Of a stretch of DNA of 64,000 bases, positions 31,947 through 39,390 are shown piece after piece. The notes below the pieces were generated by a model that did no database searches, was not told the origin of the DNA, and was given only the letters and a program-made list of their open reading frames with translations. The DNA is from Fermentimonas sp. (GTDB taxonomy: Bacteria; Bacteroidota; Bacteroidia; Bacteroidales; Dysgonomonadaceae): assembly GCA_015478775.1 (NCBI GenBank), contig JADMKP010000008.1, positions 184,076 to 248,075 of the forward strand. The letters run 5' to 3'. Numbering within the stretch: the stretch's first letter is position 1; each line of letters begins with the position of its first letter. The translations under genes and the position numbers were made by a program.

Positions 31947-31980
31947 AAAAAAACAGGAATGTCATATTATAACATTCCTG
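31947..31980 (-). terminator. Terminator after the OmpA gene
   Basis: caggaatgt / acattcctg stem; T7 run on the minus strand. Confidence 0.85.
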
Positions 31981-32076
31981 CAAATTAGAGAAAGACTTTA
32001 AATTTATGATATAATCACATACATGACTAAAGTTGTTATTGTAATATATTTAATATCATTCTCAAATTTCAAATAA

Positions 32077-33183
32077 CTATTTAGATACCTCTACTCTACG
32101 AGCACTAATAGTAAGTGCTTCATCACCCGAAGTCTTTGAATCCTTACCTTCACCCGAAGTAGTCATTCTAGAAGCATTAATACCCTGTTCAACAAGATAC
32201 TTTTTAACAGCCTCAGCTCTGCGAAGAGAGAGTCCATCATTGTAACTATCAGAACCACGGTGATCGGTATAACCTGTTACCACTACATCATCACTAGCAA
32301 ACTCTTTTAATATGCTAACGATAGTGCTAAGCTCTTCAGAATATTTCTGAGTATCCACAACATCGCTATCAAAATTAAAGTGAATAGCAGGCATAGCAGG
32401 CAATTCCTTCGCTATAGGAGCAGGTGCTGGTGCAGGCGCAGGCTTTGGAGCAGGCGCAGGCGCTGGTTCGGGAGCAGGTGCTGGAGCTGGAGTATCATAA
32501 TAAACAGGTGCAGTGCGAGTAACTGATTTACCCAAGTTAAATTTAAAACCTGCAAGAGCATTAAAATTCCAATCAGGATTATCAGCTCTCTTAGAGTTGA
32601 AATGATCAGAAAGAATGCTAGCGTTACCCTCAATCATAAAAGAAACAGCATTACTCAATTTAAAATCCAGTCCAAGACCCACTCTTCCACCAGGGAAGCC
32701 TTTGTTGTCTTGCCATAGATATTCAAGATCATAAGTACCAGTATTAAGAGCATTAGTCTCATCATTTTCAAAACCGTAAGCATAAGCACCACCGGCAAAC
32801 AGATAAGGATTAAATACCCTATCAGGATTAAACCCGTTAAACATCGATCTTAAGTCGAGCATAAAATCAAGATTAGCCTGAATAAACTTAAATGAGTACA
32901 ACTGAGCAGGAGCCACCCAGCCCCCTTTACCCTCCCAACCAGAAGCACCAAGGCGCATTCCGAACACAGGAGTAAATTTATATCCTAAGTTAAGTGCCGC
33001 AGCTGGTGAAATCAGGTCAGCAAACTTAGCCTCACCCAATGTGTGCGCAACACCACCTTGTAATTGTATAAAAGCGTGTGGTTTAAACTCAACTTTTCCT
33101 TCCTCCATAATTTGTCTCTCTTGAGAGAAAGCTGCCAGCGAAATCGCCAGGAAGGTAGCAGCCAATAATATAATTCTTTTCAT
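32077..33183 (-). CDS. OmpA-family outer membrane protein
   Basis: Signal peptide ending AFS-Q, beta-barrel, Pro/Ala linker (PAPAPAPEPAPAPAPKPAP), peptidoglycan-binding domain GYTDHRG...LSLRRAEAV. Confidence 0.93.
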   Translation of the reverse strand: MKRIILLAATFLAISLAAFSQERQIMEEGKVEFKPHAFIQLQGGVAHTLGEAKFADLISPAAALNLGYKFTPVFGMRLGASGWEGKGGWVAPAQLYSFKFIQANLDFMLDLRSMFNGFNPDRVFNPYLFAGGAYAYGFENDETNALNTGTYDLEYLWQDNKGFPGGRVGLGLDFKLSNAVSFMIEGNASILSDHFNSKRADNPDWNFNALAGFKFNLGKSVTRTAPVYYDTPAPAPAPEPAPAPAPKPAPAPAPAPIAKELPAMPAIHFNFDSDVVDTQKYSEELSTIVSILKEFASDDVVVTGYTDHRGSDSYNDGLSLRRAEAVKKYLVEQGINASRMTTSGEGKDSKTSGDEALTISARRVEVSK

Positions 33184-33261
33184 ACCTCTATTTATTTAAA
33201 ATGTTAGTGTTTATTATGGTTGATTTAATTATAATAATAAGACACGACTCATAATTAAACA

Positions 33262-33294
33262 AAGTAGGAGGAACCTACTTGGTTTCCTCCTACT
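33262..33294 (-). repeat. Palindromic hairpin between the lipoprotein and OmpA genes; copy 2 of the element at 1045-1080
   Basis: Minus strand AGTAGGAGGAAAC-CAAGTA-GGTTCCTCCTACT. Confidence 0.8.
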
Positions 33295-33317
33295 AAGAAA
33301 TTATTATTTAAAAAAGA

Positions 33318-35984
33318 TTATCGTTTTAGAACTGTAATTGGAAGTTCGATTTCAACTTCATGTCCGTACATATCAAATACAGTAATTACAAGTGTTGAAG
33401 CAACATTGGCCGTTGGATTAGAAGATCCTGAAGCTTCAGTAAGAACAACGCCAGCAGCTGTAACGCTTGCTGTGAAGTATTCTTCAAGTTCAGTACCATT
33501 ACTGTACAATTTAGCACCGCCTACAGCACCGTTTAAACCTGTTAATGACAAGCTACCTAAATATGGAGCACTTAATGGAGCATCATAATTACTATCTCTT
33601 TCGCTTGTTCCTAAGATTTCTGCTAATGATATAGTTGCATCTGAACCATATACGATTTCTGTTTCAAAATCTTCATCCCATTCCCATGAATATGTATCGT
33701 TGTAAATATTGTTAAATACAGTTGGGAAGTTTTCAACTTCTATCACATAATCAACACCATCTTGAGCAGTAGAGATATCACCATAATTGTAAACAACAGA
33801 TGTCTCATGTTGAGTTGTATTATTGATAAATTCTTTAGCAACATTTAAAGTAGAGTTACCTGGATTAACAGTTAGGTCTACAATATCATCACCACTTCTA
33901 GCAGCGTCAGCAAAGATAACATCAAAGTTAGCTACAGATGCTAAAGCATCTCCTGTAAAGGTAAACACATCTCCTAGAGGCATAGTACCTTGAGTAGCAT
34001 TTGGTGCTGTCCATGTGTTAGGAACTAAGTATGCATTATATACACCATTAGCACTTAATTGGCTAGTCTTAATAGAGAATCCTGAAGGAGCACCAGTTGG
34101 AAGTACTTTCTTCATTGATACTTTTAATGTTGCAATTACGTGACCAGTTGCATTTTTAACAATAAGTGTACCATTGTATACTTTATTATCTTCGTATGCT
34201 AACCAGCTAGAAGCTGTTGGAACTGTATGAAGTTTAGTTACCTCTGTGAAATCCACACTACTTACAACTCCCCCATCAGTTGTGAATAATTCACCATCAG
34301 CATCTTCTAATACTACATGGAATGCAGGAGTATTTTCATCTGCATCTTCGTCTGTTGTCCATTCGAATGTAGTTGCGCCTGTTATAGCAGTAAGTGTTTT
34401 ATTAACATCTTCTGATATAACTCCAGGAACTGTTTCACTTTCAGGAGTGATAACTGTATTAACAGTGCCCCAATCAGCACCTTCTGCACCAAGACTTACA
34501 TAGAATGCTTTTCCGTCAGGATCAACTAATGTACCGTCGAAGTTAACTGCATATACTCGGAAACCAATCATATCATTAATAGCACTATTGTTATTAATAA
34601 CAATTTCAGTTTCAGTTCCTTCTACTACAGAATTTAAGCCTGTGTAGCTATAGCCTTGCCAAGCATTCCATTCTGATGGTGCTGATTCAACAGCATTTGC
34701 TTGTTTGTCTAATGTAACATAAATAGCTCTAATTGTTTTAACAGCACCTTCAACAATAGAAATTTTCATTGGTCTGCCTTGTACTGCAGGGTAAACAGAT
34801 TGAGTTGTACGGTCGTCACCTGAAGTAACATTTTGGTTCGCACCAGAAGTAATTGCATCTGTTGCAGCAACATCACTCCAAACTAACTCTGCATATGGAG
34901 TTGCAGTTCCGTTATAGTTTAGAAGACTTTGTGAAGTAAAGTCAAAACGGTTATTGATATTGTCAATTGAAGTTTCATCAACCAAGAAATCTAATTCGTT
35001 TGCACCATCAAAATCATCACTCCAATCAAGTGTAATGTCATATGAAGAAACTACTTTGCGTATCAAAGGATTTTCCTCAGTTTGAGAATTGTCAACTGCA
35101 ACTGCAAATAGAATTTTACCTTGATTGCTTCCAGATATAGCATCTTCATTTACGGTAGCTGCTAAGAAGTCATCTTCGTTATACTCGCTAAGTTGAACAG
35201 TAACTTCCCAAAGACCTGCACCATTAGTAGCACGAGTAAGAAGTTGTTCGTAAGGTTTAACGCTTAATATTTCAAGATTTTCATAAGCTATACCTAAACT
35301 GTTTTGTAATGTTACCATTTCTGGAGTAATCACTGCATTAGTTGGAGATACACGAATTACAAAAGATGTAGGAGATTGAATCTGATTACCTTCTTTAAAA
35401 GTAATTGCATTTGCAATACCTGTTTCAAAAACATTATCTTGTTCAAGAACAGCAGCAAATGTAAGATCAATAGCTACATCATTGTTAGATGTAATTATTA
35501 ACTCTACATCTGTTACGATATTTCCAATCATGCTATCCACCTGAGCAGTCATTGCTGCAACATCCGCAATAATTGCTTCAAGTTGAGCTTCATTAGCTAA
35601 TTTAAGCTCTTCCATTAAAGCATCAATTCTAGCTTCTAGGCCGGAAAGAGCTTCTAGTTGATCATTAATAGCATCAAGTTCTACTTGGAAATCAGCTATT
35701 TGTCCTTCAAGTGCAGAAATAGCTTCTGCATCACCAGCAGCTTGAGCAGCAGCTAAAGCTTCGTTAGCTTTTGCTAATGCATCTGTAGCAGTAGACTGAG
35801 CAGCTGTTGCAGCGCTTTGAGCTGAAGAAACAGTTGTCTGTAATGCTGTAAGATCACTTTTTACAGTAGATACAGACGTTTCCAGACCACTGATGTCATC
35901 ATCATAATCCTTACAAGAGGGCAATATCGCTAATGCGCCTACAAGTGCAAAGACAAAAAATTTAAAAAAATAACTCTTTTTCAT
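33318..35984 (-). CDS. Large acidic surface lipoprotein with an N-terminal coiled coil (S-layer/pilin-like; resembles DUF4988/PL29-N type starts)
   Basis: Lipobox LPSC followed by KDYDDD; Ala-rich heptad region of about 120 aa; beta-rich acidic remainder. Confidence 0.75.
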   Translation of the reverse strand: MKKSYFFKFFVFALVGALAILPSCKDYDDDISGLETSVSTVKSDLTALQTTVSSAQSAATAAQSTATDALAKANEALAAAQAAGDAEAISALEGQIADFQVELDAINDQLEALSGLEARIDALMEELKLANEAQLEAIIADVAAMTAQVDSMIGNIVTDVELIITSNNDVAIDLTFAAVLEQDNVFETGIANAITFKEGNQIQSPTSFVIRVSPTNAVITPEMVTLQNSLGIAYENLEILSVKPYEQLLTRATNGAGLWEVTVQLSEYNEDDFLAATVNEDAISGSNQGKILFAVAVDNSQTEENPLIRKVVSSYDITLDWSDDFDGANELDFLVDETSIDNINNRFDFTSQSLLNYNGTATPYAELVWSDVAATDAITSGANQNVTSGDDRTTQSVYPAVQGRPMKISIVEGAVKTIRAIYVTLDKQANAVESAPSEWNAWQGYSYTGLNSVVEGTETEIVINNNSAINDMIGFRVYAVNFDGTLVDPDGKAFYVSLGAEGADWGTVNTVITPESETVPGVISEDVNKTLTAITGATTFEWTTDEDADENTPAFHVVLEDADGELFTTDGGVVSSVDFTEVTKLHTVPTASSWLAYEDNKVYNGTLIVKNATGHVIATLKVSMKKVLPTGAPSGFSIKTSQLSANGVYNAYLVPNTWTAPNATQGTMPLGDVFTFTGDALASVANFDVIFADAARSGDDIVDLTVNPGNSTLNVAKEFINNTTQHETSVVYNYGDISTAQDGVDYVIEVENFPTVFNNIYNDTYSWEWDEDFETEIVYGSDATISLAEILGTSERDSNYDAPLSAPYLGSLSLTGLNGAVGGAKLYSNGTELEEYFTASVTAAGVVLTEASGSSNPTANVASTLVITVFDMYGHEVEIELPITVLKR

Positions 35985-36042
35985 ACATTAAAAAATTTAA
36001 AAAATAATAATTAAAGATATATCACTAAGTTGTTTCTATTTT

Positions 36043-36657
36043 CTAGAAATTTTTCTTATTTAGTTTTGTTAATAATAATTCTGTCATGGTTGGGTTATAC
36101 TCTTTTTCGGAGTTATTGCCATTTTCAGTTCCTGATGAATCTCTGTCTCTCAAAAAGCGACGTCTCATCCCGGTAATCTCCTCGAAATTTGGTATATATT
36201 TTATTTCAACCTGACCAAATTCTATCATATCGTCTGTATTCTGAAAATCTATACAAACTTTAAGTAGTACGCTCTTTTTTACCAATACTCTGCATGATGT
36301 TTGAATTATTCCTGAAGAAAATAAATCTGTTTGTAATTTATCATCATGTACAATAGTTGCTGAGATTGGCTCTCCCTGCTCTACAAGCCTCACAAATAAA
36401 ATTCGGTTGTCAATTCCTACCCTATGATATGAGATTTTAATATCTGTGATTAAGCTTCCACTAACAACCGGCAGCATCATGTATATCCATTTTGAGTCGC
36501 CTGGCTCAGTAACAGTTATTTGCATTCCTGGATGGGATATATAAGGGTAGCCAAGATTTATAGTAGGATCTCCGGTTACAAATCCAATTCCGTGAAGCAT
36601 TAAAGACTCTGTTTTAGAGAGGAGCTTCTTTGATATATTTATAGTTTGATGGGGCAT
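36043..36657 (-). CDS. Hypothetical 204-aa protein, no signal peptide
   Basis: Co-directional ORF filling the gap between the HU-like gene (13 nt away) and the lipoprotein (58 nt away); family not recognised. Confidence 0.7.
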   Translation of the reverse strand: MPHQTINISKKLLSKTESLMLHGIGFVTGDPTINLGYPYISHPGMQITVTEPGDSKWIYMMLPVVSGSLITDIKISYHRVGIDNRILFVRLVEQGEPISATIVHDDKLQTDLFSSGIIQTSCRVLVKKSVLLKVCIDFQNTDDMIEFGQVEIKYIPNFEEITGMRRRFLRDRDSSGTENGNNSEKEYNPTMTELLLTKLNKKNF

Positions 36658-36670
36658 GTGTAATAGATAG

Positions 36671-37054
36671 TTACTCTTCTGTAGATATTTCCAATTTCAT
36701 GTCTTGTAAGGTCTTCTTAAACTCAGGTGCTGGAGTGAAGATCACTTTGGTGTTTTTAATATTATCGCCAGAGAAGTTTGTGGGATCATCAACTCCATTA
36801 CTGGATAATGATAATCTAAGAGTTCCCAGATTATTGAGATTAACACTATATCCTTCAATTAAGTAGGCAGGTATCTCATCAACCATGTTCTCAATCACAT
36901 TAAGAACCGCACCTCGTGTCATAGACGATTTAGCAGAAATGCCTTTGCTCAACTGGTAATTGTTTATGGTGCCCTTTTTCACTGGGCTGGCATACCACTT
37001 TCGTTTACTATCCGGTTCTAATGGATTAGCTTTCTGGATAAGTTTAAACTTCAT
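36671..37054 (-). CDS. Bacteroidales HU-related DNA-binding protein
   Basis: NPLEP..KWYA, helix pair, GYSVNLNNLGTLRLSLSS and VIFTPAPE pattern of the extended HU/IHF-like family. Confidence 0.85.
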   Translation of the reverse strand: MKFKLIQKANPLEPDSKRKWYASPVKKGTINNYQLSKGISAKSSMTRGAVLNVIENMVDEIPAYLIEGYSVNLNNLGTLRLSLSSNGVDDPTNFSGDNIKNTKVIFTPAPEFKKTLQDMKLEISTEE

Positions 37055-37451
37055 ATTTTATATTTAATTTGTGTTTATTACGCTAAAAGATTGAATACTA
37101 CCTCTGTTTACAAGTGTGTTTCAATATTTGTTACGTTTCAAGCAATGTCTATAACCGCTTATAGTTAACACGCTGACCGCTTGTCGTTTTTGTCTACTTA
37201 TAAATTATTTATCCTCTCTGAACGCTTAGAAAACATTATGGGACTTTTCACCGCCCCTTTTTTTTCTACGACAAACTTACACTATTCTATAAAATGAGGT
37301 TAGGACTTATTCTGTTATTTATAGCACAAAACCCGCTTTAACATTCATTTAATATAGCACTATTTGCTCATTTTAAAAGTTAAGTAGCAGTATTACTGTT
37401 TAATACGTGTGCTATTTGTCCTAAATATACAGGTTAAAGTTTTTTATACAA

Positions 37452-37459
37452 CAAAGATA
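37452..37459 (-). promoter_or_regulatory. Candidate -7 promoter element for the HU/lipoprotein/OmpA locus
   Basis: TATCTTTG on the minus strand; no clear -33 TTTG. Confidence 0.45.
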
Positions 37460-37490
37460 AAAACAGTTGTTAAGCTATAATATATTTAAT

Positions 37491-39209
37491 TTAACTAAGT
37501 TGCTTTTTTCTATTAGCTGCAGGTAATCTCTTGTATTGAGTAGGCGTGAAACCGATATGTTTTTTAAATACCCTCGAAAAATAGTTAACATCATATATAC
37601 CACACTCGGCTGCTACTTCACCTATAGTTTTGTTCTCGTTGGAGAGTATCTTTTTTGCATATGACAGTTTTACATGAAGTATGTATGTTGAGGAAGGGTA
37701 ACCGGTAATTGCATTTAGTTTTTTGTTTAGCTGCGATACGCTTATTGCAAGTTCTTCAGAAAGCATTGTAGGTGTAAAATCGGGGTTTTTCATCTCCCTA
37801 TAGATAAGATCAGTTGCTAGTCTCAAAAACTCTGTATTAGCATTATTTTCATCTATTATTTCGGTATTATTGTCTTCTTTTAATATCGTACGTTTATATT
37901 TTTCGATTAACAGATCGCGTGATGCTAAAAGATTCCTTACTCGTATTTGTAGTTCTTCTGGTTGAAATGGTTTTGATAAATAAGTATCTGCTCCTATATT
38001 TAAGCCCTCAAGTATATCCTCATTACGGTTCTTTGCAGATATTATTATAACTGGTATATGGTTTAGTAAAGTTGAAGCTTTTATTTTTTTTATCAATTCA
38101 ATTCCGTCTTTTTTGGGCATTATAATGTCTGTAATGATTATGTCGGGTATCAAAGATTCTGCAAGTTTATATGCTTCTTCGCCATTACTACAGTATATAA
38201 TATTGTATTTATTATTAGGAAATATTGAACGAATATATATTGCAATATCTTTATTGTCTTCTACAAGTAGAATTGTATAGCGTGAATCGTCATCAGCCCT
38301 TTTTTCTATGAAGAATCCAATCTTCGAATCAGTTGTTTCTGAAGGAGGATATATAATTTTAGCTGATGCGTCTTGTTTCCAGTGTGAATATAATATTTTC
38401 TCACTTATCTGAATAGGTAATGTAATTGTAAATGTTGTGCCTTTGCCGGGTTCGCTTATTACATCAATTTTTCCACCGGATACTTCTACTAGCTGTTTGG
38501 TGATAGTTAATCCAATACCATTACCTTCTTTTACTTTATGCTTGTTGGTTTGATAAAACAGGTCGAATAAATGTGGTAAATCATCTTTATTTACACCGAT
38601 ACCGTTGTCAATTACTTTTATGATAAATTTTTTCTTGTCTTTTTCACTTATTTCTGTCATTACATATATATGTGTACCACCTTCACTATATTTAATGGCA
38701 TTCCCTATAAGGTTGTTGAGTATCTTGTTAAGATAATCGGGTACAAAATCTGTTTCTACTTCTTTTTCTTTACTAAAAAACTGTAAGTCAATATCTTTAC
38801 CACTTGCCAGTATGGTAAAGGACTCGGTAACCATATTTACAAAGTTTACTATATTGCCGGTTTTCCATTCTATAGTGTTAATTTCGGATTGCAAGTTGGT
38901 GATATCTAACAACTGATTAATCAGAAAAGAGAGATTTTTACTTTGTCGTTCTATTGCACTTAAGAATGCTCCTGCATTATTGGGGGAAATATCTTTCATG
39001 TCACGCATCTGACGGCTCAATCCTAATATAGTGGTTAAGGGAGTACGGAACTCATGTGTGATTTTAGCAAATATATCGCTTCTAATTTGTTCTAATTGTT
39101 TTAATGATTTAATTGTCTTTAATTTATCTATATATGCAATTATTAAAAAAGATACTATAATTGTCAATAAAACAATAAGTATAATAAATGTAGTATTCTC
39201 AATATTCAT
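37491..39209 (-). CDS. Hybrid histidine kinase / receiver / AraC regulator without a periplasmic sensor domain
   Basis: One N-terminal TM, H-box ITHEFRTPL, N-box NLIGNAIKYS, G1 DNGIG, G2 GNGIGL, receiver LLVED..TDIIMP, AraC HTH YFSRVFKK. Confidence 0.9.
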   Translation of the reverse strand: MNIENTTFIILIVLLTIIVSFLIIAYIDKLKTIKSLKQLEQIRSDIFAKITHEFRTPLTTILGLSRQMRDMKDISPNNAGAFLSAIERQSKNLSFLINQLLDITNLQSEINTIEWKTGNIVNFVNMVTESFTILASGKDIDLQFFSKEKEVETDFVPDYLNKILNNLIGNAIKYSEGGTHIYVMTEISEKDKKKFIIKVIDNGIGVNKDDLPHLFDLFYQTNKHKVKEGNGIGLTITKQLVEVSGGKIDVISEPGKGTTFTITLPIQISEKILYSHWKQDASAKIIYPPSETTDSKIGFFIEKRADDDSRYTILLVEDNKDIAIYIRSIFPNNKYNIIYCSNGEEAYKLAESLIPDIIITDIIMPKKDGIELIKKIKASTLLNHIPVIIISAKNRNEDILEGLNIGADTYLSKPFQPEELQIRVRNLLASRDLLIEKYKRTILKEDNNTEIIDENNANTEFLRLATDLIYREMKNPDFTPTMLSEELAISVSQLNKKLNAITGYPSSTYILHVKLSYAKKILSNENKTIGEVAAECGIYDVNYFSRVFKKHIGFTPTQYKRLPAANRKKQLS

Positions 39210-39390
39210 GTAGTATGGTAAATATAAGTACGGTTATATTCATTTTTAGAAATTACGCAAAAGCAAAAATAATAAAAATAATGTAAATAAGACAGTTTCT
39301 AAGCATATTTTCTCAACACTTCTTTGTAATAATTGTATGTGCCCAATGGTATATCCCATTAAATGTGTAAATTTGTAATTATTATTAACT

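What the first reader, a model, noticed from the sequence alone, without database searches (positions are those of the whole stretch)
32077..39209. Candidate cell-surface-layer module: sensor-less HTCS, long leader, HU-like protein, orphan protein, giant acidic lipoprotein, OmpA
Seen: five co-directional genes between core genes (pnp and the TlpA-greA block); gaps of 13 and 58 nt link HU, the orphan and the lipoprotein; a hairpin separates the lipoprotein from ompA; a strong terminator closes the block. Established: phase-variable S-layer loci of B. thetaiotaomicron pair a surface lipoprotein with an OmpA and are switched by tyrosine recombinases and invertible promoters. Here no recombinase or invertible repeat pair is visible; a kinase-AraC hybrid and a nucleoid-type protein are present instead. 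Inference: a signal-regulated rather than inversion-switched S-layer, pilus or anti-phage coat, with the intergenic hairpin giving excess lipoprotein over the OmpA anchor. This is the best candidate for an undescribed system in the window.
Basis: partly seen in the sequence, partly recalled or inferred. Interest (0 to 1): 0.72.

Follow-up and report, generated by a model that had tools for sequence, protein, structure and literature searches.

The report
Kinase-fronted surface lipoprotein–OmpA operon
This bacterium carries relatives of the surface lipoprotein/OmpA pairs that gut Bacteroides switch on by DNA inversion when phages attack, but here they sit behind a fixed promoter, a sensor-less kinase-regulator, an HU-like protein and a small beta-sandwich protein.

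Summary
In detail: five co-directional minus-strand genes lie between pnp and TlpA/GreA, with the stated gaps (436, 13, 58, 134 nt), a hairpin and a terminator.

The 888-aa lipoprotein and the OmpA are true homologues of the B. thetaiotaomicron BT1792/BT4480-type phase-variable "S-layer-like" lipoprotein/OmpA pairs. They are not homologues of the canonical BT1927/BT1926 pair. The B. thetaiotaomicron loci have a recombinase and perfect 19-22-nt inverted repeats. This locus has neither.

Instead it has a conserved, fixed-orientation TAnGTTTG promoter with an upstream block that occurs once in the genome, and an A-rich leader without conserved structure.

In 43 of 43 evaluable loci from several Dysgonomonadaceae genera, a short sensor-less HisKA-REC-AraC hybrid sits directly upstream of the HU-like gene. 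This holds even though the flanks differ. The cargo also differs: either an S-layer-like lipoprotein with OmpA, or a fimbria-like operon.

The "orphan" is a jelly-roll domain that elsewhere forms the N-terminus of tailspike-like beta-helix proteins.

Control by the hybrid kinase, lattice formation, and the roles of HU and the orphan are inferred, not shown.

Verdict: a new regulatory variant of a known surface-coat family, of moderate to high interest. The scan had noted the lipoprotein and the kinase on this same window, but not on other DNA.

The parts
37491..39209 (-). Sensor-less hybrid two-component protein, 572 aa: one TM helix, HisKA, HATPase, REC and an AraC-type HTH
   Evidence: Pfam. 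It is the only short form in this genome, beside four canonical HTCS of 1308-1463 aa. It lies directly upstream of the HU gene in 43 of 43 evaluable loci.
37272..37414 (-). Conserved promoter region. It holds TAGCAC/GTGCTA copies, the ATGTTAAAGC...TCCTAA block (37300-37344) ending 19 nt upstream of the -7 box, and the Bacteroidota -7 box TAAGTTTG (37272-37279).
   Evidence: Alignments of 29-32 distinct sequences show the same orientation in all. The block occurs once in the 2.9-Mb genome.
37055..37266 (-). Inferred 5' leader of about 210 nt. It is A-rich (42% A), conserved in primary sequence, and has no conserved secondary structure.
   Evidence: (RNAalifold: 4 pairs, -0.13 kcal/mol). No Rfam match. 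The transcription start is inferred from the -7 box and was not mapped.
36671..37054 (-). HU-HIG family protein, 127 aa. It has the HU domain only and no C-terminal wHTH, Ig or Gly-rich part.
   Evidence: PF18291 8e-27 and TIGR01201. It is the only strong HU-HIG match in the genome. Orthologues are 64-96% identical.
36043..36657 (-). 204-aa cytoplasmic jelly-roll beta-sandwich protein with a disordered basic tail. It starts 13 nt after the HU stop codon.
   Evidence: No Pfam or NCBIfam family. AF2 model at pLDDT 72 with 8 strands. Its domain forms the N-terminal module of beta-helix, tailspike-like proteins.
33318..35984 (-). 888-aa acidic surface lipoprotein. Lipobox Cys24 is followed by an LES-like KDYDDD, a coiled coil at about 27-152, then 6-7 Ig-like domains.
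   Evidence: Homologue of B. thetaiotaomicron BT1792/BT1826/BT4480/BT1512. Hypervariable between species.
33263..33294 (-). Terminator-like hairpin between the lipoprotein gene and ompA: roughly 13-bp stem, dG about -20 kcal/mol, U-rich tail
   Evidence: Equivalent hairpins occur in 7 of 9 related loci, some with unrelated sequence.
32077..33183 (-). OmpA-family protein, 368 aa: N-terminal beta-barrel, Pro/Ala-rich linker, peptidoglycan-binding OmpA_C domain
   Evidence: PF00691 8e-20 and PF13505. It is 43% and 48% identical to the OmpAs of the BT1792 and BT4480 loci.
31953..31981 (-). Intrinsic terminator closing the operon: 13-bp stem followed by T7

Best explanation
The lipoprotein and OmpA are the Dysgonomonadaceae version of the BT1792-type 'S-layer-like' surface lipoprotein/OmpA pair of Bacteroides. 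An LES-bearing acidic lipoprotein is flipped to the cell surface. There a coiled-coil stalk carries a fast-evolving string of Ig-like domains. The lipoprotein is paired with an OmpA-type barrel that ties the outer membrane to peptidoglycan. Expression here does not depend on DNA inversion. A fixed sigma-A-type promoter, with a conserved activator-like block ending 19 nt upstream of the -7 box, transcribes one operon: HU-like, jelly-roll protein, lipoprotein, then OmpA. A conserved terminator-like hairpin after the lipoprotein gene lets only part of the transcripts reach ompA. I infer that the membrane-anchored, sensor-less HisKA-REC-AraC hybrid directly upstream is the dedicated activator of this promoter, so that the coat is signal-regulated. 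HTCS, promoter and HU together form a portable front end that drives a fimbria-like operon in sister genomes. Shown: homology, anatomy, absence of the switch, and co-conservation. Inferred: activation by the HTCS, surface exposure, attenuation, and any role of HU and the jelly-roll protein.
For: Homology to the B. thetaiotaomicron loci:
- The LP888 profile hits eight B. thetaiotaomicron loci.
- Four of them carry the published qPCR primers of BT1792, BT1826, BT4480 and BT1512 (primers from PMC12548429).
- The BT1792 and BT4480 loci read recombinase, then lipoprotein (with the same SCKDYDDDI), then OmpA at 43-48% identity.

No inversion switch:
- B. thetaiotaomicron shows perfect 19-22-nt inverted repeats 256-264 nt apart. 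The window shows none.
- There is no recombination-site motif in the leader.
- There is no recombinase on the contig.
- The promoter has the same orientation in 32 distinct sequences.

Surface exposure:
- Cys followed by K-D-Y-D-D-D fits the lipoprotein export signal K-(D/E)2 / SDDDD (PMC5080379).
- The model shows a coiled coil plus Ig-like domains.

Hypervariability:
- The lipoprotein is 30-56% identical between species, or alike only at the N-terminus.
- At the same locus HU is 67-80%, OmpA 57-82% and PNPase 80-86% identical.

HTCS linkage:
- The short HTCS sits directly upstream of HU in 43 of 43 evaluable loci from at least four genera.
- The upstream flank varies between TlpA/GreA, an ExbBD-TonB-PBP insertion and other genes.
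- The cargo is either the lipoprotein with OmpA, or a set of Mfa2-like, DUF3575, OmpA/PD40 and Calx-beta genes.
- The upstream promoter block occurs once in the genome.
- This is the only sensor-less HTCS in the genome.

Hairpin: it recurs with sequence turnover in 7 of 9 relatives.

RNA: contigs from RNA libraries of two studies cover HU through ompA, and one contig bridges the orphan-lipoprotein junction.
Against: - No experiment links the HTCS to this promoter. Adjacency within one bacterial family could be inherited synteny.
- The small AraC proteins found upstream of lipoprotein homologues in Phocaeicola and Bacteroides are not orthologous to the AraC domain of this HTCS. There is therefore no cross-family conservation of the regulator.
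- Lattice formation has been shown only for BT1927, which is not homologous to LP888. 'S-layer' is a borrowed label for this family.
- The transcription start is inferred from a consensus box only.
- RNA contigs cannot prove a single transcript or give expression levels.
- The beta-arm region of the HU-like protein is acidic or neutral rather than basic (read), so a DNA-bending role is doubtful.
Confidence: 0.6

Rival explanations
1. The HTCS is only a syntenic neighbour. The operon is driven constitutively, or by a regulator encoded elsewhere, and the kinase-regulator controls something else.
For: All the evidence for linkage is positional and comes from a single bacterial family. The HTCS is a separate transcription unit 436 nt upstream. 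Lipoprotein homologues elsewhere lie next to quite different regulators: a recombinase, a small AraC protein, or a LytS/LytTR pair.
Against: HTCS-HU adjacency holds in 43 of 43 evaluable loci, although the upstream flank and the downstream cargo both change. The conserved upstream block is unique in the genome, which suits a local dedicated regulator. No second target for a single-copy sensor-less HTCS is apparent.
Confidence: 0.25
2. The HU-like protein and the jelly-roll protein are not regulators. They form a phage-conflict module made together with the coat. One possibility is a cytoplasmic decoy that mimics the N-terminal docking module of tailspike-like proteins. Another is an HU-HIG protein that intercepts invading nucleic acid.
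For: The orphan domain is homologous (profile E down to 1e-23, about 33% identity) to the extreme N-terminus of 51 of 136 representative proteins. The eight of these that were scanned are 585-1123 aa long. Seven of the eight carry a pectate-lyase-like beta-helix, and five of six scanned carry PHROG tail-spike, tail-fiber or tail-protein matches. Foldseek returns phage tail J and baseplate proteins among its weak hits. A conflict role was proposed for HU-HIG proteins in PMC5499826. The homologous lipoprotein loci of B. thetaiotaomicron are induced in survivors of phage attack (bioRxiv 10.1101/521070).
Against: One pattern scan of IMG/VR found no relative. The beta-helix proteins examined lie in chromosomal or uninformative contexts. 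HU127 is single-copy and strongly conserved, the opposite of an arms-race signature. The same HU also fronts fimbria-like operons, in four of five cases without the orphan.
Confidence: 0.12
3. The lipoprotein is not a lattice-forming coat. It is a stalked adhesin or ligand-binding surface protein, and OmpA is simply the abundant structural porin expressed from the same locus.
For: Its fold matches are generic strings of Ig-like domains: titin, RTX adhesins and cadherins rank alongside S-layer proteins. No lattice has been shown for any BT1792-type protein. The OmpA is far more conserved than the lipoprotein.
Against: The lipoprotein-OmpA pairing is conserved from Dysgonomonadaceae to Bacteroides, Phocaeicola and Segatella/Prevotella. 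Hypervariability behind a conserved N-terminus is the pattern reported for BT1927-type coats (PMC4611039). No SusC/D or adhesin-export genes lie adjacent.
Confidence: 0.3

Closest known systems
B. thetaiotaomicron phase-variable 'S-layer-like' lipoprotein/OmpA loci (BT1792, BT1826, BT4480, BT1512 and others; Porter et al. 2020, bioRxiv 10.1101/521070)
   Same: The roughly 900-1200-aa lipoprotein is homologous and carries the identical SCKDYDDDI lipobox/LES. Its N-terminus is conserved and the rest is variable. A homologous OmpA (barrel plus OmpA_C) lies directly downstream. A hairpin lies between the two genes at BT4480.
   Different: The window has no adjacent tyrosine recombinase and no 19-22-nt inverted repeats around the promoter. 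The lipoprotein gene is single-copy here, against about eight loci in B. thetaiotaomicron. It is preceded by HTCS, HU-HIG and a jelly-roll protein, which are absent from the three B. thetaiotaomicron loci examined.
BT1927/BT1926, the canonical B. thetaiotaomicron S-layer (Taketani et al. 2015, PMC4611039)
   Same: A surface lipoprotein of about 900 aa with an acidic LES, followed by an outer-membrane beta-barrel gene. Its N-terminus is conserved and the rest is variable.
   Different: No detectable homology: blastp E 0.43, and hhalign aligns only the signal peptide. BT1926 is a PF16961 barrel without OmpA_C.
Bacteroidota hybrid two-component systems (HTCS)
   Same: HisKA, HATPase, REC and an AraC HTH in a single membrane-anchored polypeptide.
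   Different: It lacks the large periplasmic sensor domain. It is 572 aa long, against 1308-1463 aa for the four canonical HTCS of the same genome. It is not next to a SusC/D polysaccharide-utilisation locus.
HU-HIG clade of Bacteroidota HU proteins (Burroughs et al. 2017, PMC5499826)
   Same: It matches PF18291 and TIGR01201 above their cut-offs.
   Different: It has no C-terminal wHTH, Ig or Gly-rich module. It is single-copy, strongly conserved (64-96% identity) and has a fixed operon context. The clade was described as expanded, fast-evolving and almost without conserved operon links.
N-terminal module of tailspike-like or depolymerase-like beta-helix proteins (PF12708-containing)
   Same: The orphan's jelly-roll domain aligns along its whole length with their first 140 residues or so. 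They share the motifs GFVTGDPT and PGDxKW.
   Different: The orphan has no beta-helix. It ends in a disordered basic tail and is encoded in a surface-protein operon.

Membership tests
BT1792-type phase-variable lipoprotein/OmpA loci of Bacteroides | Large surface lipoprotein homologous to BT1792, BT1826 or BT4480 | tested here: met
   The profile of LP888 homologues hits the primer-verified BT1792 locus at E 1e-73. Blastp covers the full length at 6e-49. The SCKDYDDDI motif is identical.
BT1792-type phase-variable lipoprotein/OmpA loci of Bacteroides | OmpA-like beta-barrel gene directly downstream | tested here: met
   OmpA368 is 43% identical (E 9e-93) to the OmpA of the BT1792 locus and 48% identical (E 3e-112) to that of the BT4480 locus. 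Both carry PF00691.
BT1792-type phase-variable lipoprotein/OmpA loci of Bacteroides | Adjacent tyrosine recombinase | tested here: not met
   PF00589 finds four genes in the genome and none on contig C8. The flanking genes are PNPase, TlpA-like and GreA.
BT1792-type phase-variable lipoprotein/OmpA loci of Bacteroides | Promoter flanked by inverted repeats (GTTAC-N7-GTAAC type) and found in both orientations | tested here: not met
   The same repeat search finds perfect 22-nt and 19-nt inverted repeats at BT1792 and BT4480, and nothing comparable in the window. There is no such site in the leader. The orientation is identical in 32 distinct promoter sequences.
BT1792-type phase-variable lipoprotein/OmpA loci of Bacteroides | Induced in, or protective for, cells surviving phage attack | not testable with these tools
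   This needs phage infection experiments.
BT1927/BT1926 S-layer | Lipoprotein homologous to BT1927 | tested here: not met
   Blastp E 0.43. Hhalign aligns only 25 signal-peptide columns at probability 43%.
BT1927/BT1926 S-layer | Forms a visible lattice on the cell surface | not testable with these tools
   This needs EM or cryo-ET.
Hybrid two-component system (HTCS) | HisKA, HATPase, REC and AraC HTH in one protein | tested here: met
   All four domains score above the Pfam cut-offs.
Hybrid two-component system (HTCS) | Large periplasmic sensor domain between two TM segments | tested here: not met
   HisKA starts at residue 43 after a single N-terminal hydrophobic helix. Canonical paralogues align only through their C-terminal 550 residues or so.
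HU-HIG (PF18291) | HU-HIG type HU domain | tested here: met
   PF18291 at 94.2 bits (cut-off 26.2). TIGR01201 at 82.7 bits (cut-off 68.6).
HU-HIG (PF18291) | C-terminal wHTH, Ig or glycine-rich module; lineage-specific expansion with rapid divergence | tested here: not met
   The protein ends after the HU domain at 127 aa. There is one strong copy in the genome. Mean column identity among orthologues is 78%.

The most novel reading that the evidence does not exclude
The single-copy HU-HIG protein and the tailspike-N-terminus-like jelly-roll protein form a previously unrecognised functional pair. The pair is made from the same promoter as a hypervariable surface coat. It might be a nucleic-acid-binding and adaptor pair that sets coat expression after transcription starts, through the conserved unstructured A-rich leader. 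Or it might be an intracellular anti-phage decoy acting together with the external coat. The sensor-less HTCS, the operator block and HU would then be a portable control cassette for interchangeable surface structures, whether coat or fimbriae.
Probability: 0.15. Interest if true: 0.8.

Novelty: new variant of a known kind. Interest (0 to 1): 0.58.

Why it matters
The BT1792-type lipoprotein/OmpA loci are a main non-capsular route by which gut Bacteroides survive phages. So far they are known only as stochastic, inversion-switched systems.

This locus shows the same coat family under a fixed promoter that is presumably signal-controlled. It is single-copy, sits at a fixed chromosomal site and diversifies between species. 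That makes it a simpler system for asking what these proteins do and what cue calls for them.

The locus also gives the enigmatic HU-HIG clade its first conserved operon context. It gives a family of sensor-less hybrid kinases a candidate target. And it assigns the 'orphan' to a domain family shared with tailspike-like beta-helix proteins.

The organisms concerned (Fermentimonas, Proteiniphilum, Petrimonas and relatives) are abundant in anaerobic digesters and compost, where phage pressure affects how the process performs.

Tried and rejected
- RNA structure in the leader: RNAalifold on 29 sequences gave 4 pairs at -0.13 kcal/mol with no compensatory changes. Rfam gave no match at E<=1. I dropped the riboswitch and structured-leader idea.
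- Binding between the HU dimer and the orphan: the complex-prediction job returned no verdict. It counts neither for nor against.
- Fold of the orphan: Foldseek against PDB and AFDB gave only weak generic jelly-roll hits at TM 0.3-0.45. The Atlas feature search and PHROGs gave nothing for the orphan itself. No solved structure matched HU127 by sequence.
- Phage origin of the orphan domain: one IMG/VR pattern scan found no relative. The contigs encoding the beta-helix proteins were short or chromosomal.
- A recurrent AraC link: small HTH_18 proteins lie directly upstream of lipoprotein homologues in Phocaeicola and Bacteroides. Their best matches in this genome are other AraC genes, not this HTCS. 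I rejected them as evidence of a conserved regulator.
- Homology to BT1927: rejected.
- Metatranscriptome depth: contigs from RNA libraries leave the HTCS stretch (37417-39300) almost uncovered, and depth falls after the hairpin in three of four runs. Contig depth cannot rank genes and a gap proves nothing, so I did not use either point as evidence.
- O-glycosylation: there is one D[ST][AILVMT] motif against 5.2 +/- 2.1 expected. I drew no conclusion.
- Supplementary files of PMC4611039 were not available.


Full report
**1. Observation**

ORF listing and translation reproduce the five minus-strand genes at the stated coordinates. The gaps are 436 nt (HTCS to HU), 13 nt (HU to orphan), 58 nt (orphan to lipoprotein) and 134 nt (lipoprotein to ompA).

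Pfam and NCBIfam give the following.
- The 572-aa protein has HisKA, HATPase_c, Response_reg and HTH_18/HTH_AraC. HisKA begins at residue 43, after a single N-terminal hydrophobic helix.
- The 127-aa protein is HU-HIG (PF18291, 8e-27; TIGR01201).
- The 204-aa protein has no family.
- The 888-aa protein gives only a weak alanine-zipper hit.
- The 368-aa protein has OmpA_C plus an OMP beta-barrel.

The flanks are PNPase on one side and a DUF4369/AhpC-TSA (TlpA-like) protein, GreA and HIT on the other. A roughly 13-bp hairpin of about -20 kcal/mol with a U-rich tail follows the lipoprotein stop codon. A 13-bp stem followed by T7 closes the block after ompA. The lipoprotein has pI 4.05 and a single Cys, the lipobox Cys24.

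**2. What the lipoprotein and OmpA are**

LP888 has more than 1,800 homologues. The nearest is only 58% identical, and a few are named 'cell surface protein' in Fermentimonas or Lascolabacillus records. The window therefore probably comes from a Dysgonomonadaceae bacterium of that group.

In an alignment of 32 homologues, the motif S-C-K-D-Y-D-D-D-I after the signal peptide is invariant. This motif fits the Bacteroidota lipoprotein export signal, K-(D/E)2 in Capnocytophaga and SDDDD in B. fragilis (PMC5080379). Surface exposure is therefore likely, though inferred.

The AlphaFold model has pLDDT 79. It shows a long coiled coil at about residues 27-152, followed by six or seven Ig-like beta-sandwich domains. 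Foldseek returns only generic multi-Ig chains. These include the S-layer proteins Sap and SbsB and an archaeal S-layer protein, ranked beside titin, adhesins and cadherins.

**3. Link to the known B. thetaiotaomicron loci**

I located the B. thetaiotaomicron genome by the published BT1927 qPCR primer (PMC12548429). It gave one exact match among 250 genomes of the genus, on a contig of 6,260,361 bp.

The gene at that site is 940 aa. Its N-terminus reads C-I-D then T, which agrees with the reported mature start at T26 after D25 (PMC4611039). Two recombinases lie upstream, and a PF16961 barrel lies downstream.

This protein, BT1927, is not detectably related to LP888. Blastp gives E 0.43, and hhalign aligns only the signal peptide. 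BT1926 is likewise unrelated to OmpA368.

The LP888 profile does hit eight other B. thetaiotaomicron loci. Four of these carry the qPCR primers of BT1792, BT1826, BT4480 and BT1512. The primer table lists eight such genes in all. They correspond to the eight loci of lipoprotein, OmpA-like protein and recombinase that Porter et al. found induced in survivors of phage attack (bioRxiv 10.1101/521070).

The BT1792 and BT4480 loci read as follows:
- a recombinase of 312-315 aa;
- a lipoprotein of 1008 or 1206 aa, beginning ...SCKDYDDDI (blastp to LP888 is 6e-49 over the full length for BT1792);
- an OmpA of 396 or 363 aa, 43% and 48% identical to OmpA368.

The window's pair therefore belongs to this described family, not to the BT1927 family.

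**4. The switch is absent**

With identical settings, the repeat finder returns perfect inverted repeats between recombinase and lipoprotein in B. thetaiotaomicron. They are 22 nt at BT1792 and 19 nt at BT4480, they contain GTTAC-N7-GTAAC, and they lie 256-264 nt apart. In the window's leader it returns only a weak AT-rich 12-mer pair.

The GTTAC-N7-GTAAC motif occurs in the window only at chance level and not in the leader. The genome has four tyrosine recombinases, none on this contig.

**5. What stands in place of the switch**

The roughly 350 nt upstream of the HU gene are conserved across the genus by blastn, in 34 of 62 genomes.

An alignment of 32 distinct promoter regions shows these elements:
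- a Bacteroidota -7 box, TAnGTTTG;
- an invariant-like block, AAATGTTAAAGC...T(G/C)CTA...AAATAAnTCCTAAC, ending 19 nt upstream of the box, where a TTTG -33 element would normally lie;
- further TAGCAC/GTGCTA copies.

All 32 have the same orientation. The core of the block occurs once in the 2.9-Mb genome.

The inferred leader is 210-275 nt long and A-rich. It is conserved in primary sequence but has no consensus structure and no Rfam match.

**6. Co-conservation**

In same-genus genomes the order is HTCS, leader, HU, orphan, lipoprotein, (OmpA), pnp. Identities to the window's proteins are:
- HU 67-80%;
- OmpA 57-82%;
- PNPase 80-86%;
- HTCS 44-61%;
- orphan 43-61%;
- lipoprotein 30-56%, or alike only in the first 50-240 residues.

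The lipoprotein is thus hypervariable at a fixed site. This is the same pattern reported for BT1927 homologues (PMC4611039).

Across the family, HU127 orthologues (64% identity or more) occur at 46 places in about 44 genomes of four genera. At 43 of these places a short HTCS, with an open frame of about 560-650 aa, lies directly upstream on the same contig. The other three are cut by contig ends.

This adjacency survives changes on both sides. The upstream neighbours are TlpA/GreA, or an inserted ExbB-ExbD-ExbD-TonB-PBP block, or unrelated genes.

In five loci the cargo behind HU (with or without the orphan) is not the LP888-type lipoprotein. It is instead:
- a weakly Mfa2-like lipoprotein;
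- a second lipoprotein;
- a DUF3575 barrel;
- a protein of about 620-630 aa that has OmpA_C and, in the one copy scanned, a weak PD40 match;
- a Calx-beta protein.

Together these look like a fimbria-like surface operon.

The promoter block is conserved in four of these five loci as well. HTCS, operator/promoter and HU therefore behave as one unit with exchangeable surface-structure cargo. This is the main argument, though still positional, that the HTCS controls the operon.

In the window's genome this is the only sensor-less HTCS, beside four canonical ones of 1308-1463 aa. The HU-like gene is the only strong HU-HIG match.

**7. The HU-like protein**

It consists of the HU domain alone and lacks the wHTH, Ig or Gly-rich extension that names the clade. 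It is strongly conserved, with 78% mean column identity.

Burroughs et al. described HU-HIG proteins as expanded, fast-diverging and nearly without conserved operon links, and proposed a conflict role (PMC5499826). This member is the opposite on all three counts.

Its predicted arm region is acidic or neutral (read), so classical DNA wrapping is doubtful. Its function is open.

**8. The 'orphan'**

Word-based search finds 85 relatives. The few with named sources are from Proteiniphilum, Petrimonas or unclassified Bacteroidales/Bacteroidia. The model is an eight-stranded jelly roll with a disordered basic tail and no signal peptide.

An exhaustive profile search finds 139 representatives. In 51 of 136 re-scored hits the domain sits at the extreme N-terminus of proteins 350-1123 aa long. 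Of eight such proteins scanned, seven carry a pectate-lyase-like beta-helix (PF12708). Five of six scanned against PHROGs match tail-spike, tail-fiber or tail-protein families, two of them also an EPS-depolymerase family. Two carry a precomputed 'Phage_tail_beta' family.

The alignment is convincing, at 33% identity with shared GFVTGDPT and PGDxKW motifs.

No relative was found in IMG/VR with one pattern, and the few contexts seen are chromosomal or short. Whether these proteins belong to phages or to cells is undecided.

In tailspikes, N-terminal modules dock the spike onto a partner. By analogy the orphan is most simply read as a protein-docking module. This is inference.

**9. Hairpin and transcripts**

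A strong hairpin directly after the lipoprotein stop codon is present in 7 of 9 related loci, including BT4480. Some of these have unrelated sequence, so the structure rather than the sequence is kept.

I found no TAnnTTTG box between the hairpin and ompA by reading the sequence. This fits partial termination that gives more lipoprotein than OmpA, or a stabilised 3' end.

Contigs from RNA libraries of a compost study (three runs) and a gut study (one run) cover HU, orphan, lipoprotein and ompA. One contig bridges the orphan-lipoprotein junction. This is compatible with co-transcription but does not prove it.

**10. Other regulators next to homologues**

In Phocaeicola and Bacteroides, small HTH_18 proteins of 162-189 aa lie directly upstream of lipoprotein homologues. 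They are not orthologous to the AraC domain of this HTCS.

A second lipoprotein gene in one same-genus genome is preceded by a short LytS-type kinase and a LytTR regulator. A LytTR pair also lies upstream of the BT1792 recombinase.

The family is thus found with several kinds of transcriptional input. This makes signal control plausible without proving it here.

**11. Verdict**

The lipoprotein/OmpA core is a member of a known family. The inversion switch that defines the Bacteroides loci was tested here and is absent.

The front end is new as a combination. It consists of the sensor-less HTCS, a unique operator-like block, a tail-less single-copy HU-HIG protein and a tailspike-N-terminus-like jelly-roll protein. 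It is conserved, and it can be coupled to another kind of surface operon.

Control by the HTCS, surface exposure, lattice formation, attenuation, and the roles of HU and the orphan remain inferences. Confidence in the full model is 0.6.

Noticed in passing
L013:11876-13613 (G012:C1, record named Lascolabacillus massiliensis): Here the gap between the HTCS and the conserved promoter block is 1738 nt rather than 440-720 nt. About 1.2 kb of extra sequence seems to carry an ORF and may be an insertion element. The promoter block and HU remain intact downstream.
   Followed up: no
L018:6247-14317 (= L074, G015:C1, Fermentimonas sp.): Two lipoprotein genes (1247 aa and 968 aa) flank a single ompA at the syntenic site. 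This suggests duplication or stacking of coat alleles.
   Followed up: no
L151, L155-L158 (G391, G017:C14, G020, G041, G014): The same HTCS-promoter-HU cassette fronts a different operon: a weakly Mfa2-like lipoprotein, a second lipoprotein, DUF3575, an OmpA_C-containing protein (weak PD40 match in the one copy scanned) and a Calx-beta protein. The orphan is present only in L151.
   Followed up: partly
L027:7460-7948, L077:6447-6947, L071:6395-6934, L078:6349-6918: In human-gut and animal-gut Phocaeicola and Bacteroides, a small AraC-type HTH_18 protein (162-189 aa) lies about 50 nt upstream of the lipoprotein homologue. No recombinase, HU or OmpA was seen next to it in L027.
   Followed up: partly
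L020:4607-9512 (G017:C35) and L148:11724-13657 (B. thetaiotaomicron BT1792 region): A short LytS-type histidine kinase and a LytTR response regulator lie directly upstream of a second lipoprotein paralogue. A LytTR/His_kinase pair also lies just beyond the BT1792 recombinase.
   Followed up: no
L141:7262-10084 versus L142-L147 (B. thetaiotaomicron): A profile that detects eight other B. thetaiotaomicron loci (four primer-verified as S-layer-like lipoprotein genes) aligns with BT1927 only in its signal peptide. Its barrel partner is also of a different family (PF16961 against PF00691). The 'eight S-layer loci' therefore appear to comprise two unrelated lipoprotein/barrel families.
   Followed up: partly
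window 33318-35984: The lipoprotein has only one Bacteroidota O-glycosylation motif, D[ST][AILVMT], where composition predicts 5.2 +/- 2.1.
   Followed up: no
L075, L080, L082, L101, L119-L122, L126, L128 (Segatella, Prevotella, Bacteroidaceae): An unannotated ORF of about 105-190 aa recurs between the lipoprotein gene and ompA. The two copies scanned had no Pfam family.
   Followed up: no
L162:5205-8636 (G006:C7): A distant HU-HIG homologue (43% identity) is followed in the same direction by two large lipoprotein genes (923 and 793 aa) of other families. HU-HIG genes in front of lipoprotein operons may be a wider pattern.
   Followed up: no
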